This document shows, in pieces, positions 60,285-63,420 of a DNA stretch of 64,000 nucleotides (within the stretch, counting starts at the first letter, position 1; each line of letters begins with the position of its first letter). The notes under the pieces are model-generated. The model searched no databases, was not told the origin of the DNA, and worked only from the letters and a program-made list of their open reading frames with translations. The stretch spans positions 21,411 to 85,410 of the forward strand of contig CAKJZJ010000007.1 of NCBI GenBank assembly GCA_918292005.1, read 5' to 3'. The DNA is from Clostridiales bacterium. GTDB taxonomy: Bacteria; Bacillota; Clostridia; Christensenellales; UBA1242. The position numbers and the translations under genes are program-made.

Positions 60285-60506
60285 TGCTCAACTCTTGGGT
60301 AAGAAAATGTGGTCAGATTTAGGGTAGTGGAAAGAGGTAAAAGGCGTCCGGGTGCCATTACCATATAAACACCTTTTAATAATAGGTGTTTTTTATTCGC
60401 ATATTGCTTTGTTTAAAAAACTCTAAAAACTTTTTACAAAAAAGGATTTGGGCTAGTTTTGTCCGTATGTATTGTTATAATATAAATGAAGGGAGTATAT
60501 CAAAGA

Positions 60507-60748
60507 TGATTGCGAAAAAGACAATAATACTATATGTTTTGCAAGCTTTCGAGTATTCTAACGAACCTATTAATTTACTTAACCTTACCAAAGCACTCAA
60601 TGCAAGAGGTATCGTGTGTGATAGAAAAACAGTTGGTCGAAATGTGAAATATTTAATAGAATTTGGTGTGCCAATTGTGAAAGAGAAAAGGGGCTATTAC
60701 TATTTAAAAAATGAAGACGAGCAATATCAGTATCTATTGAAAAGATAA
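60507..60748 (+). CDS. Small winged-HTH DNA-binding protein (about 80 aa)
   Basis: MIAKKTIILYVLQAFEYSNEPINLLNLTKALNARGIVCDRKTVGRNVKYLIEFG has the same layout as the N-terminal HTH of WYL-type regulators. The start is placed at the ATG after GAAGGGAG. An extended -10 element TGT-TATAAT lies upstream. Confidence 0.55.
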
Positions 60749-60792
60749 TTAAGCGATTATTAGTCTTTAAAATATAAATGGGAGAAGAAAAT

Positions 60793-61473
60793 ATGAATTG
60801 TCAATGTACTTTAGATGAAGAAAAATTTTTAAATGATAAAATAAAAGAAGAATATGTGTATTGGGTAAAGAATGTAGTATTTCAAAGAGATTCGCTAGAC
60901 ATAATACAGGCTCATATAACTGCAGTAGAACAATACATGAAAATGCACAATTTGGATTATGTGTCTATGTGTAGTGATATCTATAACATTTTGTATCGCG
61001 AAGAGACAAGAGGGAAATTGGGCAGCAGAGCTATTGTTATGATACTTCGTACGTATAGAGAATTTATAAATAAGAACAATAAGAAAATAAATGAGATTCT
61101 GAGACGTGTTGTAGAAACGCATAAAACATCCGATAATAAACTAATCATACAACCTGTCACTCAGCATGCAGATAGCATTAAAGGCTTGGATTTAAAAAGT
61201 GAATATCGAAAGTGGTTGATTGTACACGGTTATAAAGAGCTCACTCCATCGGGTTATCCTAGCACAATTCCGCAATATATAAACAGTATTGAAATTGTAA
61301 AAATGAAAGAATGTTTTGACAATTGGATAGATGTTTGTGACAATATCGACAGATTAGTAATTGATTATAGCCTTGGTGGCAGAGAAGAAAAATATGGATT
61401 GTCTGGTCATAGAACTCCAATTAATGCACTGCATAGATTTAAAGAGTTTATAGATTTTTGTCGTTGTAAATAA
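60793..61473 (+). CDS. Hypothetical protein (226 aa)
   Basis: The ORF start is placed at the ATG after GGGAGAAGAAAAT. No recognised motif. Confidence 0.55.
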   Translation: MNCQCTLDEEKFLNDKIKEEYVYWVKNVVFQRDSLDIIQAHITAVEQYMKMHNLDYVSMCSDIYNILYREETRGKLGSRAIVMILRTYREFINKNNKKINEILRRVVETHKTSDNKLIIQPVTQHADSIKGLDLKSEYRKWLIVHGYKELTPSGYPSTIPQYINSIEIVKMKECFDNWIDVCDNIDRLVIDYSLGGREEKYGLSGHRTPINALHRFKEFIDFCRCK

Positions 61474-61492
61474 TGGGAAGGCAGTAAGTAAT

Positions 61493-61891
61493 ATGATAAA
61501 AAAACATAATTATTATAAAGATGTAGAGGCATATATGTTGCCACATTTTTTAGACATGTCTCATGACACAATTAAAAATGTTTGGGGATCGATAGAATTT
61601 CTAGGTCTAATAGGACTAAGACCAATTCTTGTGGAGTGTAAATGTTTAGGAAGAAATTGTTGTAAAGATGAAATTACAATAAATGGTCGCTATAGATATT
61701 ATATGAAACCCTTCAATATTAATGGCAAGTATTATCACATATATTCAAACTGGAAAAATGGTGAGTATAAAAAAATATTTAATGGATTCAAAGAACTATG
61801 GAATTCTGGACTACATCCATTTATTGAGTGTGGTCCAAAAATTCATATTGAAAACACAGGATCACATACATTTAATGGAAGGATAATTTAA
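61493..61891 (+). CDS. Hypothetical Cys-rich protein (132 aa)
   Basis: ORF 19 nt after the previous stop, with RBS GGGAAGG. It contains ECKCLGRNCC. Confidence 0.5.
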   Translation: MIKKHNYYKDVEAYMLPHFLDMSHDTIKNVWGSIEFLGLIGLRPILVECKCLGRNCCKDEITINGRYRYYMKPFNINGKYYHIYSNWKNGEYKKIFNGFKELWNSGLHPFIECGPKIHIENTGSHTFNGRII

Positions 61892-62871
61892 TGGAAAAAA
61901 AATTAGAGGATTGTATGCCTAAGCTTATACAGGTTACAATGGATAATATCAATAATATTTCATATGAGGATATTGTAGCTGTAGTATATGCTAGTGGTGG
62001 TGCGATGGGAAATGGTGGGGAATTGACCATTGTGCAAAAAAGAAATACTACGACATTTTATACCACCAATTTAGTATATTCCGCTGATAAAACTTTGGTG
62101 GAAAAAATAACAAACACTTATTTTAAACCTTTTATAGAAGCGTTTAGAGATGAACAAATACCCGAATTTGATAGTTACGAATTGAAAAGTATAGACTGGA
62201 TAGAGATAATGATGGGATTTACAGGCAACTATATTTTTGTCAAAAAAAATTATTATCATAAATTCAAATTCGTTGTTGAAATGTTCCCTAATACTTATAT
62301 TTCCGATAAATATCGATTGGATAATTATCTGGACATATATGTGAACAGGTATTCAATATTATATTTGGCTTTTGAATATGATCTTACATATTACAGTGAA
62401 ATATATTATAAAGTAAAGCGTATGATTGGGTATTATTTCGTATCTAAAATGAAATTATATGATAAATTAACAGGTAAACCCATCCCAGCATCTTTATGCG
62501 ATGAAATTTATAAAGATATTGTGAGTAGATTTTCGGATTGTTGTGGTTCGACAACAACTCAGCTGAATAATCTGTCTATGTCAGATTTTGTAGCGTTTTT
62601 TAATCATGCAAAAACAAAAGATTTTTATTGCCAAATGTTGACGGCTAATAATTTCAATAATCTTTTCAACGATACGCCTCTAGATTCAGATATGTTGGTA
62701 GATATATCGGTAAAAGGCGAAAATTGTAAGAATGCTTTGGATATTGTTTATGATGTTATCAAAAATATTAATTTTGGTCGTAATAATGATGTGATATTTT
62801 TGATATCTCAAAACAAAAAATTGTATTTTAAATTTAGTATTAAATTGTTTTATGGTAAATATAATTCTTAA
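61891..62871 (+). CDS. Hypothetical protein (326 aa)
   Basis: The start overlaps the previous stop (TAATG), which implies translational coupling. No recognised motif. Confidence 0.55.
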   Translation: MEKKLEDCMPKLIQVTMDNINNISYEDIVAVVYASGGAMGNGGELTIVQKRNTTTFYTTNLVYSADKTLVEKITNTYFKPFIEAFRDEQIPEFDSYELKSIDWIEIMMGFTGNYIFVKKNYYHKFKFVVEMFPNTYISDKYRLDNYLDIYVNRYSILYLAFEYDLTYYSEIYYKVKRMIGYYFVSKMKLYDKLTGKPIPASLCDEIYKDIVSRFSDCCGSTTTQLNNLSMSDFVAFFNHAKTKDFYCQMLTANNFNNLFNDTPLDSDMLVDISVKGENCKNALDIVYDVIKNINFGRNNDVIFLISQNKKLYFKFSIKLFYGKYNS

Positions 62872-62907
62872 CATAAACAAAATTTACATTCTAAATAAAG
62901 GGAATTT

Positions 62908-63420
62908 ATGCAATACGAAATAAAACATTGTAGTGTATTAGAAGCAGAGACTGAGGCGATAGTTAATGCCGCTAATAAGTATCTAGAATGTGGTGGAAGT
63001 TTATGTGGTGCAATATTTGCAGCTGCAGGTGGTGAACAATTAGCAAAGGAATGCAGAAAATATGGATTTGTGGAAACAGGTTCGGCTGTGGTCACTCCAG
63101 GGTTTAAAACTGGTGCTAAATATATAATTCATGCTGTTGGTCCGAACATATGGCACAACAAGGATGATTGGCAAGAAAAATTGAAAGAAGTATATAATAA
63201 TGCTCTAGCTGTGGCAGATTTTAGAGGGGTAAAAAGTATTGCGTTGCCTTGTATATCTACCGGAGTATATTCGTGTCCATTAGAAGAAGCGACGCAAATA
63301 GCAATAGATGTTGTTAAAAATTTTAAGCCAAAATTTATTGAAAAGTGTCTATTTTGTTGCTACACTGCTGAAGAATATGAAGCATATTTACAAATAGAAA
63401 AAAGAATAAAATTGAGTTAG
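62908..63420 (+). CDS. Macro domain protein, paralog of 17571-18077
   Basis: AIVNAANKYLECGGSLCGAIFAAAG, GSAVVTPG, YIIHAVGPN and ALPCISTGVYSCP are present. It is collinear with the first macro ORF over its whole length, at roughly 55-60 percent identity by eye. Confidence 0.85.
   Translation: MQYEIKHCSVLEAETEAIVNAANKYLECGGSLCGAIFAAAGGEQLAKECRKYGFVETGSAVVTPGFKTGAKYIIHAVGPNIWHNKDDWQEKLKEVYNNALAVADFRGVKSIALPCISTGVYSCPLEEATQIAIDVVKNFKPKFIEKCLFCCYTAEEYEAYLQIEKRIKLS

What the first reader, a model, noticed from the sequence alone, without database searches (positions are those of the whole stretch)
60480..63420. Five-gene operon (wHTH, three unknown proteins, macro domain): candidate undescribed ADP-ribose-linked system
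Seen in the sequence: an extended -10 promoter, then a small wHTH gene. ORFs of 226, 132 and 326 aa follow with gaps of 44, 19 and -1 nt, the last junction being a TAATG coupling. A macro-domain gene comes 36 nt later, and a convergent terminator closes the operon. None of the three middle proteins has a motif I can assign. Established knowledge: macro domains reverse ADP-ribosylation, and in toxin-antitoxin and defence contexts they neutralise an ADP-ribosylating partner. Inference: one of the unknown proteins may be a novel (ADP-ribosyl)transferase or NAD-consuming effector that is kept in check, or has its product processed, by the macro enzyme under HTH control. The same logic (unknowns plus a paralogous macro plus an HTH/WYL regulator) recurs at 16.4-21.4 kb.
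Basis: partly seen in the sequence, partly recalled or inferred. Interest (0 to 1): 0.7.

Follow-up and report, generated by a model that had tools for sequence, protein, structure and literature searches.

The report
HTH-controlled ADP-ribose eraser operon
A real five-gene operon in a phage-defence island pairs an ADP-ribose-removing macro enzyme with a previously undescribed protein domain that is fused or adjacent to another ADP-ribose-removing enzyme in most of the other loci examined; it most likely undoes ADP-ribosylation imposed by an invader and shows no sign of carrying its own toxin.

Summary
Five co-directional genes (wHTH, 226/231 aa, 132 aa, 326 aa, macro) have exactly the stated spacings. 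They follow an extended -10 box and lie between two hairpin terminators, inside a defence island (Mokosh-like helicase, AbiL, PDC-S41).

The three middle proteins match no family in Pfam, NCBIfam, PADLOC or PHROGs, and have almost no relatives among 5.8 billion proteins.

An exhaustive HMMER search showed that residues ~5-160 of the 326-aa protein form a rare, undescribed domain, here called 'GAMG'. Its AlphaFold model is confident (pLDDT 84.5) and has no Foldseek analogue.

Elsewhere this domain is fused to ADP-ribosylglycohydrolase (two subfamilies) or lies beside one, often with WYL regulators. One such operon also carries homologues of the window's HTH and of the 231-aa protein's domain. 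The ADP-ribose linkage is therefore real and conserved at domain level.

No ADP-ribosyltransferase or NADase signature was found. GAMG has only glycines and one asparagine conserved, and the macro is MacroD-type, not DarG-type.

Best reading: a macro-based variant of the WYL/HTH-regulated, hydrolase-centred systems that Iyer et al. (2022) predicted to erase foreign ADP-ribosylation. A hidden toxin in the orphan parts is not excluded.

The parts
60367..60396 (+). Intrinsic terminator that ends the upstream AbiL unit and isolates the operon
   Evidence: Inverted repeat AAACACC/GGTGTTT followed by a U-run. Folds at -8.2 kcal/mol, z -3.2.
60408..60442 (+). AT-rich inverted repeat upstream of the promoter; possible operator (inference only)
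   Evidence: Repeat I2, 12-nt arms, 83% complementary.
60473..60481 (+). Extended -10 promoter element TGTTATAAT
   Evidence: Read directly in the sequence. It has no consensus -35, so it is absent from the scan.
60506..60748 (+). 80-aa winged-HTH regulator: the DNA-binding module of WYL-type regulators, without the WYL sensor
   Evidence: Pfam HTH_11 0.005 and PADLOC WYL N-terminus 0.0047. 42% identical to the wHTH L2_117 that heads the ARH operon in L002, E 3e-14. Matches the N-terminus of the L012 WYL-WCX regulator, E 6.6e-6.
60793..61473 (+). Protein A (226 aa; 231 aa from ATG 60778): tandem duplication of a ~100-aa helical 'A-domain'
   Evidence: Internal repeat, E 4e-5. The C-terminal copy is 39% identical to the C-terminus of the 451-aa protein of the L002 ARH operon, E 6.5e-15. 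The same domain sits at the C-terminus of a RelB-N-terminal protein in IMG/VR phage contigs. No family hit.
61493..61891 (+). Protein B (132 aa), basic with 5 Cys; an orphan
   Evidence: The only hit in 5.8 billion proteins is itself. No family or PDB hit. Translationally coupled to C through TAATG.
61891..62370 (+). Protein C, N-terminal 'GAMG' domain (residues ~5-160): the new domain family linked to ADP-ribose hydrolases
   Evidence: Exhaustive phmmer gave 19 hits, all to this region. Alignment A1 has invariant G40, G43, G109, G112 and N113. AlphaFold2 with the alignment gave pLDDT 84.5 and pTM 0.82. No Foldseek analogue: PDB best E 0.41, BFVD best E 0.15. Fused or adjacent to ADP_ribosyl_GH elsewhere.
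62371..62871 (+). Protein C, C-terminal ~165 aa: orphan region of unknown fold
   Evidence: No relatives beyond the 97% strain variant. The single-sequence AlphaFold2 model is unusable, pLDDT 37. Whole-gene pN/pS is 0.21.
62908..63420 (+). MacroD-type macro domain protein (170 aa), the predicted ADP-ribose hydrolase
   Evidence: Pfam Macro 2.9e-34. Best NCBIfam hit is O-acetyl-ADP-ribose deacetylase, 2.9e-43 but below the equivalog cut-off. Best PDB match is human MacroD2, 2e-25, with the NAAN...GG and ISTGVY motifs aligned. 58% identical to the macro at 17571-18077.
63500..63531 (+). 14-bp hairpin terminator shared with the convergent PDC-S41/DUF2075 gene
   Evidence: Terminator scan. Folds at -16.3 kcal/mol, z -5.3.
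16439..21380 (+). Sister operon: o179/o182 paralogues, macro paralogue, o269, soluble FtsH-like AAA+M41 protease, WYL-WCX regulator
   Evidence: Pfam. Macro 58% identical. The WYL regulator is 36% identical (E 5e-80) to the regulator beside an ARH in L012. The protease matches PADLOC IetA, 4.8e-22, and has no transmembrane segment.

Best explanation
The operon is a self-contained transcription unit in a defence island, probably repressed by its HTH protein. Its catalytic output is removal of ADP-ribose by a MacroD-type macro enzyme.

It belongs to a rare, uncharacterised group of loci in uncultured gut Firmicutes. In these loci an ADP-ribose hydrolase (macro or ADP-ribosylglycohydrolase, interchangeably) is combined with three things: a wHTH or wHTH-WYL regulator, the new GAMG domain (here the N-terminal half of protein C), and a helical 'A-domain' (protein A).

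No ADP-ribosyltransferase is encoded. The most likely job is therefore to erase ADP-ribosylation placed on host macromolecules by a foreign transferase, from a phage or from a competitor's toxin. GAMG would act as the non-catalytic partner that binds the modified target or the transferase and directs or complements the eraser.

Shown: the gene structure, macro identity, domain homologies, fusions and neighbourhoods. Inferred: repression by the HTH, hydrolase activity, the binding role of GAMG, and an extrinsic origin of the modification.
For: The operon anatomy and terminators are confirmed.

Defence-island context: a Mokosh-like helicase, AbiLi/AbiLii and PDC-S41.

Macro is MacroD-type with its motifs intact.

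The GAMG domain is fused to ADP_ribosyl_GH in P0008 (1.7e-43), in P0013, and in a second subfamily, L049-51 (1.2e-66). It is separated from an ARH by one gene in L047/L055-57 and by 3.6 kb in L012.

The L002 ARH operon also has a homologue of the window HTH (E 3e-14) and of protein A's domain (E 6.5e-15). WYL regulators or WYL proteins flank the hydrolases in L012 and L051, and in the window's sister operon.

Macro and ARH replace each other next to homologous partners twice: the HTH+GAMG+A set, and the WYL344-type regulator.

The only conserved GAMG residues are glycines in two beta-hairpin turns plus one Asn, which suits a binding module rather than an enzyme.

No ART, Sir2, TIR or RES hit appears in A, B or C.

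The concept matches the ARG-centred, WYL/Nudix-regulated systems without a coupled ART that Iyer et al. 2022 predicted to counter viral ADP-ribosylation (PMC9503650 section 3.8). A MacroD2 macrodomain was shown to remove the phage AcrIF11 modification from Csy1 (PMC12421852 abstract).
Against: No function was tested. Protein B, the C-terminal half of C and the N-terminal part of the A-like 451-aa protein have no homologues or usable models, so a divergent ART or NADase could hide there.

The window HTH lacks the WYL sensor, so how induction would work is unclear.

Two of the GAMG loci examined (L015, L048) show no ADP-ribose enzyme nearby, and one (L009) lies two genes from a RES-domain protein, a family known as NAD-consuming toxins.

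The 28 ARH relatives from named genomes have none of these partners, so this is a small subset.

The macro has Cys and Phe where MacroD2 has Asp102 and His106. Activity is inferred from viral macros with similar substitutions, which is my own knowledge and was not tested.
Confidence: 0.45

Rival explanations
1. Toxin-antitoxin or abortive-infection module. One of the orphan proteins (B, the C-terminal half of C, or A) would be a novel ADP-ribosyltransferase or NAD-consuming effector, with the macro as its antidote or product processor under HTH control, in the manner of DarTG.
For: The operon is tight, with a translationally coupled B-C pair and the macro as last gene. It sits in a defence island. 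Its orphan, fast-evolving proteins cannot be assigned. In L009 a RES-domain protein (27.9 bits, above the cut-off) lies two genes from a GAMG protein. ARH-type and macro-type antitoxins of DarT are known (PMC13069673).
Against: No ART, Sir2, TIR or RES signal appears in any library. The candidate toxin parts have no homologues anywhere, whereas the conserved partners of the hydrolase (HTH, GAMG, A-domain) do not look catalytic and one is fused to the hydrolase. The macro is MacroD-type, not the DarG clade. A five-gene layout with a dedicated repressor is unlike two-gene TA modules.
Confidence: 0.25
2. Orphan or 'poly-immunity' cassette against secreted interbacterial ART toxins. GAMG would bind and occlude a competitor's toxin while the macro or ARH reverses its modification, as in the bifunctional immunity protein Tri1. 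A and B would be further immunity proteins.
For: The GAMG-ARH fusions have the architecture of Tri1, an N-terminal toxin-occluding part followed by a DraG-like ARH (PMC8120803 section 5.6). GAMG proteins are small, cytoplasmic, fast-diverging and conserved mainly at structural glycines. Long runs of small same-strand ORFs follow the fusion in L050/L051. No toxin is present in the locus.
Against: None of the loci examined shows an adjacent LXG, Rhs or T6SS/T7SS toxin. wHTH/WYL regulators and AbiL, Mokosh-like and PDC-S41 neighbours point to phage defence. No Pfam Imm family matches.
Confidence: 0.15
3. Counter-defence cargo of a mobile element. The eraser and its partners would protect an incoming or resident element from host ADP-ribosylation-based immunity (for example DarT) or would degrade ADP-ribose-derived immune signals.
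For: The L002 operon lies in an element with ImmA/IrrE-like and cI-like genes and serine recombinases. The A-domain occurs in IMG/VR phage contigs fused to a RelB-like N-terminus. The operon's GC is 28-32%, against 35.6% for the window. Phage-borne orphan DarG/NADAR-like erasers are documented (titles and abstracts).
Against: No relatives of C, GAMG, P0008 or the macros were found in 50,697 phage genomes, IMG/VR or 72,556 plasmids. The window locus is chromosomal (gyrBA and serS are in the window) and has no integrase or phage genes around it.
Confidence: 0.1

Closest known systems
ARG-centred, WYL/Nudix-regulated systems predicted to counter viral ADP-ribosylation (Iyer, Burroughs, Anantharaman, Aravind 2022, Viruses 14:1977, section 3.8; computational prediction only)
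   Same: An ADP-ribose-deconjugating enzyme with no coupled ART or sirtuin. HTH-WYL negative regulators. A variable set of fast-evolving accessory proteins. Displacement of functionally equivalent domains. Occasional Macro genes. REase-like effectors (L2_350 has a weak HSDR_N_2/Cas4-like N-terminus). Chaperone or protease partners (an FtsH-like protease in the sister operon).
   Different: The window operon is centred on macro, not ARG. Its regulator is a bare wHTH without a WYL or Nudix sensor. It has no rhodanese or other phosphatase and no ARPP. Its accessory domains (GAMG, A-domain) are not among those named in the paper. The hosts are gut Firmicutes rather than the actinobacteria, planctomycetes and proteobacteria the paper lists.
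DarTG toxin-antitoxin defence (DarT ART plus DarG macro; the DarHTG variant has an ARH-like DarG3)
   Same: An ADP-ribose eraser encoded in a defence context, with macro and ARH-type erasers interchangeable between variants.
   Different: No DarT/DUF4433 or any ART was detected. The macro is MacroD-type rather than DarG-type. There are five genes with a dedicated HTH.
Tri1/Tre1 bifunctional immunity (DraG-like ARH with an N-terminal toxin-occluding extension)
   Same: GAMG-ARH fusions have an N-terminal non-catalytic part followed by a DraG-like ARH. In the window the two functions would be split between protein C and the macro.
   Different: No adjacent ART toxin or secretion system. GAMG is a ~150-aa folded domain, not a short extension. 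The eraser in the window is a macro.
BrxR/CapW-type wHTH-WYL-WCX regulators of defence islands
   Same: The sister operon's regulator has WYL and WCX domains. The 80-aa HTH is homologous to the wHTH of such regulators.
   Different: The 80-aa protein has no WYL or WCX sensor domains. Its ligand control, if any, is unknown.
Macrodomain reversal of a phage ART (AcrIF11 modification of Csy1 removed by human MacroD2 in lysate)
   Same: This shows in principle that a MacroD-type macro can undo a phage-imposed ADP-ribosylation of a defence protein.
   Different: That experiment used a human enzyme in lysate. No dedicated bacterial system was described.

Membership tests
Macro domain (Pfam PF01661), MacroD-type | Significant match to the Macro profile across the whole domain | tested here: met
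   PF01661 2.9e-34, 118 bits against a cut-off of 22, profile positions 1-118 of 118.
Macro domain (Pfam PF01661), MacroD-type | Closest to MacroD/YmdB/Af1521 enzymes, with the NAAN...GG loop and the G-[VI]-[YF] loop present | tested here: met
   Best PDB hits are MacroD2 (2e-25), MacroD1 and Af1521. The alignment shows NAAN, GG and ISTGVY. NCBIfam O-acetyl-ADP-ribose deacetylase scores 147 bits, below the equivalog cut-off of 200. The MacroD2 Asp102 and His106 positions are Cys and Phe here.
Macro domain (Pfam PF01661), MacroD-type | ADP-ribose binding or hydrolase activity | not testable with these tools
   Needs biochemistry.
ARG-centric anti-viral-ADPr systems (Iyer et al. 2022) | Core ADP-ribosylglycohydrolase (ARG) gene | tested here: not met
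   No ADP_ribosyl_GH in the window operon; the eraser is a macro. ARG is present in the homologous loci L002, L012, L047 and L049-51.
ARG-centric anti-viral-ADPr systems (Iyer et al. 2022) | No genomically coupled ART or sirtuin | tested here: inconclusive
   No ART, Sir2, TIR or RES hit in A, B or C in four libraries and the PDB. Three orphan regions could not be modelled.
ARG-centric anti-viral-ADPr systems (Iyer et al. 2022) | One-component negative regulator with a WYL or Nudix sensor fused to an HTH (in over 42% of systems) | tested here: not met
   The operon's regulator is 80 aa and HTH only. It is homologous to the HTH of WYL regulators. The sister operon and L012 have full WYL-WCX regulators.
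ARG-centric anti-viral-ADPr systems (Iyer et al. 2022) | Coupled phosphatase (rhodanese-phosphatase, calcineurin-like, HD or HAD) in about 55% of systems | tested here: not met
   No phosphatase family hit in the operon or in L002, L012 or L047.
ARG-centric anti-viral-ADPr systems (Iyer et al. 2022) | Peptide-binding chaperone partner (vWA, SseB, TY-Chap1-3) | tested here: inconclusive
   The GAMG model has a b-b-b-a-b-b-a order of elements, which from memory resembles T3SS-chaperone topology. Foldseek found no such match, and no TY-Chap sequences were available to compare.
DarTG | DarT (DUF4433) ADP-ribosyltransferase gene adjacent to the eraser | tested here: not met
   No DUF4433 or DarT hit in Pfam or PADLOC for any operon protein.
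DarTG | DarG-type (TARG1/ALC1-like) macro | tested here: not met
The nearest relatives are MacroD-type.
wHTH-WYL-WCX regulators (BrxR/CapW-like) | N-terminal winged HTH | tested here: met
   HTH_11 0.005; PADLOC WYL model positions 9-61, 0.0047. E 3e-14 to L2_117, which matches the L012 WYL regulator at 1.9e-19.
wHTH-WYL-WCX regulators (BrxR/CapW-like) | WYL and WCX domains | tested here: not met
   The protein ends at residue 80. The domains are present in WYL344 of the sister operon.
Tri1-like bifunctional immunity | DraG-like ARH domain plus an adjacent cognate ART toxin | tested here: not met
   No ARH in the window, and no ART or secretion-system genes in the window locus or in L002, L012 or L047-51.
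Macro-type Thoeris | TIR-domain ThsB plus a macro-containing ThsA effector | tested here: not met
   No TIR or ThsA/ThsB hit in Pfam or PADLOC. The macro is a stand-alone 170-aa protein.

The most novel reading that the evidence does not exclude
GAMG is a new fold that recognises ADP-ribosylated host proteins (or the foreign transferase itself) and recruits macro or ARH erasers. The operon would then be a host 'anti-anti-defence' device that restores cellular or immune proteins inactivated by phage ADP-ribosyltransferases. That would be the first experimentally approachable example of the eraser-based immunity predicted in 2022. A DNA-directed version is also open, namely removal of DarT-like ADP-ribose adducts from DNA. 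It is hinted at by an SRA-like neighbour in L015 and by Y-family polymerase and YolD neighbours in L012.
Probability: 0.25. Interest if true: 0.8.

Novelty: new variant of a known kind. Interest (0 to 1): 0.55.

Why it matters
ADP-ribosylation is a major weapon on both sides of phage-bacterium and bacterium-bacterium conflicts, but host systems that simply erase a foreign modification are so far only a computational prediction.

This locus and its relatives give a compact, testable set of parts: a small repressor, a MacroD-type or DraG-type eraser, and a new ~150-aa domain that travels with the erasers and is even fused to them. The domain has a confident predicted structure with no detectable analogue.

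If the domain is the specificity or recognition module, it would explain how generic erasers are aimed at particular modified targets. It would also add a new family to the ADP-ribose toolkit.

If one of the orphan proteins instead proves to be a transferase, the locus would be a new multi-component relative of DarTG. Either outcome can be reached with simple expression, phage-challenge and binding experiments.

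Tried and rejected
1. Family scans of A, B and C against Pfam, PADLOC, NCBIfam and PHROGs returned only noise.
2. Word-indexed homologue searches for A, B and C found only the proteins themselves plus one 97% variant of C.
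3. PDB sequence searches for A, B, C and for the GAMG and A-domain profiles found nothing.
4. Single-sequence AlphaFold2 of full-length C was unusable, pLDDT 37.
5. Foldseek of the good GAMG model against the PDB and BFVD gave no match better than E 0.15, with TM-scores no higher than 0.37.
6. The search for related loci with the GAMG alignments A1 and A2 failed because they were not conserved enough. The narrower alignment A5 worked on metagenomes.
7. The genome scan with the two macros found neither relatives nor the source genome.
8. The genome scan with the ARH found 28 loci, none with GAMG, HTH or A-domain partners.
9. tblastn of A, B, C, GAMG and P0010 against phages and plasmids, and IMG/VR scans with C, P0008 and the macros, found nothing.
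10. Direct similarity between the unknowns of the two window operons: none apart from the macros.
11. o179/o182 against L2_155/L2_174: BLAST E 0.03-0.05 and a shared N-terminal motif, but the two-sequence profile finds nothing, so homology is left unproven.
12. The supplement of Iyer et al. was not available for comparing TY-Chap sequences. Literature searches for DUF6508 and DUF1810 were uninformative.
13. The source contig could not be fetched to read beyond position 64000.

Full report
**1. Observation**

Five co-directional ORFs occupy 60506-63420:
- an 80-aa protein, 60506-60748;
- protein A, 60793-61473 (226 aa from the ATG that follows a GGGAGAAG ribosome-binding site; 231 aa from ATG 60778);
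- protein B, 61493-61891 (132 aa);
- protein C, 61891-62871 (326 aa);
- a 170-aa macro protein, 62908-63420.

The intergenic distances are 44, 19, -1 (TAATG) and 36 nt. An extended -10 element, TGTTATAAT, lies at 60473-60481. It has no consensus -35, which is why the simple scan does not list it.

The unit is bracketed by two hairpins. One is at 60367-60391 plus a U-run (-8.2 kcal/mol, z -3.2). The other is at 63500-63531 (-16.3 kcal/mol, z -5.3) and is shared with a convergent gene.

A metagenomic contig (L001) is 97.4% identical over 61684-63127 without gaps. It gives pN/pS of 0.21 for C and 0.06 for the macro, so these are real genes under selection. None of the products has a transmembrane segment.

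**2. Context**

The window is chromosomal: gyrB, gyrA and serS are present. Its GC is 35.6%, against 28-32% for the operon.

The last 10 kb is a defence island:
- a Mokosh-like SF1 helicase (PADLOC MkoC 1.5e-47) plus an unknown 362-aa protein;
- AbiLi/AbiLii (4e-90 and 9.5e-22);
- the operon itself;
- a convergent PDC-S41/DUF2075 Schlafen-type helicase (2e-67), cut by the window end.

**3. Identifiable parts**

The last gene is a MacroD-type macro domain: Pfam 2.9e-34, best PDB relative human MacroD2 at 2e-25, with the NAAN...GG and ISTGVY loops aligned. It is not of the DarG type.

The first gene is a winged HTH. It is weak against Pfam (HTH_11, 0.005) but is homologous to the N-terminal DNA-binding module of WYL regulators: PADLOC WYL model 0.0047, 42% identity to L2_117 (E 3e-14), and E 6.6e-6 to the L012 WYL-WCX regulator. 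It has no WYL sensor.

**4. The three unknowns**

A, B and C hit nothing in Pfam, PADLOC, NCBIfam, PHROGs or the PDB. In the 5.8-billion-protein collection they have only themselves and one 97% variant of C.

An exhaustive HMMER search with C changed the picture. It gave 19 hits, all confined to residues ~5-150. Most are stand-alone proteins of 135-170 aa. They share the motifs A..GAMG.PGE and W....G.GN.LFIR, so I call the domain 'GAMG'.

The 17-sequence alignment has invariant G40, G43, G109, G112 and N113 and no other invariant polar residue. With this alignment AlphaFold2 gives a confident model (pLDDT 84.5, pTM 0.82) with the element order b-b-b-a-b-b-a-(b)-a. The two glycine motifs sit in beta-hairpin turns. 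Foldseek finds no analogue in the PDB (best E 0.41) or BFVD (best E 0.15). No Pfam family covers the domain in any of the ten members scanned.

**5. Linkage of GAMG to ADP-ribose enzymes**

- GAMG is fused N-terminally to ADP-ribosylglycohydrolase in P0008 (Pfam ADP_ribosyl_GH 1.7e-43) and P0013. It is also fused in a second, distant subfamily of 460-466-aa proteins, L049-51 (1.2e-66).
- In L047 and L055-57 the order is f190, GAMG, a 97-aa gene, then ARH.
- In L012 a stand-alone GAMG lies 3.6 kb from an ARH. That ARH is followed by an f190-family protein and a WYL-WCX regulator.
- In L051 the fusion is followed by a WYL-domain protein.
- In L009 a DUF6508-GAMG protein lies two genes from a RES-domain protein (27.9 bits, above Pfam's cut-off).
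- Two loci (L015, L048) show no ADP-ribose enzyme.

The best-resolved locus, L002, is an operon with this gene order:
- wHTH (42% identical to the window HTH);
- GAMG-ARH;
- a 159-aa protein;
- a 451-aa protein whose C-terminus is 39% identical to the C-terminal half of protein A (E 6.5e-15);
- a 350-aa protein with a weak REase-like N-terminus.

Three of the window's five genes therefore have homologous counterparts in an operon where an ARH replaces the macro.

Protein A is itself a tandem duplication of this ~100-aa helical 'A-domain' (E 4e-5). The same domain ends a RelB-N-terminal protein in IMG/VR phage contigs.

**6. The sister operon at 16.4-21.4 kb**

It encodes two paralogous unknowns (o179 and o182), a macro 58% identical to the first, an unknown 269-aa protein, a soluble FtsH-like AAA+M41 protease (PADLOC IetA 4.8e-22) and a WYL-WCX regulator. 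That regulator is 36% identical (E 5e-80) to the one beside the ARH in L012.

Macro and ARH thus displace each other next to homologous partners in two independent settings. Apart from the macros, the unknowns of the two window operons are unrelated.

**7. How common it is**

The family is rare. It has only about 18 representative clusters among 1.84 billion proteins. Most members come from gut metagenomes. No relatives appear in 50,697 phage genomes, IMG/VR (for C, P0008 and the macros) or 72,556 plasmids.

Twenty-eight relatives of the ARH in named genomes have none of these partners, though two have macro genes adjacent. The source lineage is itself poorly sampled: its GyrA is a singleton at 90% identity.

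**8. Interpretation**

No ADP-ribosyltransferase, sirtuin, TIR or RES signature is detectable in the operon. The one conserved unknown domain is covalently joined to the eraser in other organisms and lacks catalytic-type conserved residues. The macro is a MacroD-type eraser.

This pattern matches the logic of Iyer et al. 2022 (PMC9503650, section 3.8). In that logic, ADP-ribose-deconjugating enzymes without a coupled transferase act on modifications made by an extrinsic enzyme. They are regulated by HTH-WYL or Nudix repressors and embellished with fast-evolving chaperones and effectors.

The present operon differs in several ways. It is macro-centred, its regulator has no sensor domain, it has no phosphatase, and its accessory domains are new. 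The AcrIF11 study shows in principle that a MacroD2 macrodomain can remove a phage-imposed ADP-ribose from a defence protein.

I therefore favour an 'eraser' system, with GAMG as a binding or targeting module (confidence 0.45).

**9. Rivals**

- A DarTG-like module with a hidden toxin in B, C-Cterm or A (0.25). This cannot be excluded because those parts are orphans and could not be modelled. The RES neighbour in L009 keeps the idea alive.
- A Tri1-like orphan immunity cassette against interbacterial ART toxins (0.15). The GAMG-ARH architecture mirrors Tri1, but no toxin or secretion genes are nearby.
- Counter-defence cargo of a mobile element (0.10). L002 sits in such an element, but the family is absent from the phage and plasmid collections.

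**10. Verdict**

The 'novel transferase kept in check by macro' part is not supported, though it is not refuted.

The locus is best filed as a new variant of a computationally predicted but experimentally untested kind of system. It carries a domain family that appears to be undescribed.

Noticed in passing
window 16439-21380: Second macro operon: two paralogous acidic Cys-rich proteins (o179 and o182, 36% identical), a macro 58% identical to the first, an unknown basic 269-aa protein, a soluble FtsH-like AAA+M41 protease without a membrane anchor (PADLOC IetA 4.8e-22) and a WYL-WCX regulator. A protease in an ADP-ribose eraser operon is unexplained.
   Followed up: partly
window 53482-57835: A 1000-aa SF1 helicase matches Mokosh MkoC and MkoA models (1.5e-47 and 1.7e-40). 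It is followed by a 362-aa protein with no family hit. This may be a Mokosh variant or a separate defence system.
   Followed up: partly
window 58001-60284: AbiLi/AbiLii (AAA_21 + RloB) pair, with an extra 105-aa ORF (59967-60284) before the terminator. The small ORF has no family hit.
   Followed up: no
window 63572-64000 (-): C-terminal part of a PDC-S41/DUF2075 Schlafen-group-3-type helicase, convergent with the operon and cut by the window end.
   Followed up: no
window 25839-36608: A 3589-aa ORF without a single Pfam hit. It is followed by an S26/S24-like peptidase, four unknown proteins and a transglutaminase-core protein. This may be a giant surface or secreted protein locus.
   Followed up: no
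L009 2263-5496: A DUF6508-X-GAMG protein is followed by a 190-aa unknown, a Zn_ribbon_Top1 protein and a RES-domain protein (NAD-consuming toxin family). This is the only place where GAMG sits near a candidate NAD-using toxin.
   Followed up: partly
L053 7347-8282 (also L052, L054): In IMG/VR phage contigs a 311-aa protein joins a RelB/DinJ-type antitoxin N-terminus to the A-domain of protein A. It sits just upstream of a 669-aa ORF, in a same-strand run of ORFs that was not annotated.
   Followed up: partly
L047 367-939; L012 12899-13480; L002 13384-14436: A third recurrent partner family ('f190', conserved motif W.ANP.F.YL...W.L.LND). It sits next to ARH or GAMG genes and is sometimes fused to a weak PD-(D/E)xK-like N-terminus. 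It is absent from the window.
   Followed up: partly
L023 5918-8858; L027 127-2042: In two genomes, relatives of the same ARH subfamily lie directly after 346-394-aa macro-containing proteins (in L023 followed by two tandem ARH genes). Macro-ARH pairing therefore also occurs without GAMG.
   Followed up: no
L050 4672-10823; L051 9347-15067: Long same-strand runs of about ten small ORFs (110-260 aa) follow the GAMG-ARH fusion and its WYL-domain neighbour. Of the two scanned against Pfam, one (L051 9347-10015) has a WYL domain and the other only sub-threshold hits; the rest were not scanned. Their nature is unknown (immunity array, or a mobile-element module).
   Followed up: no
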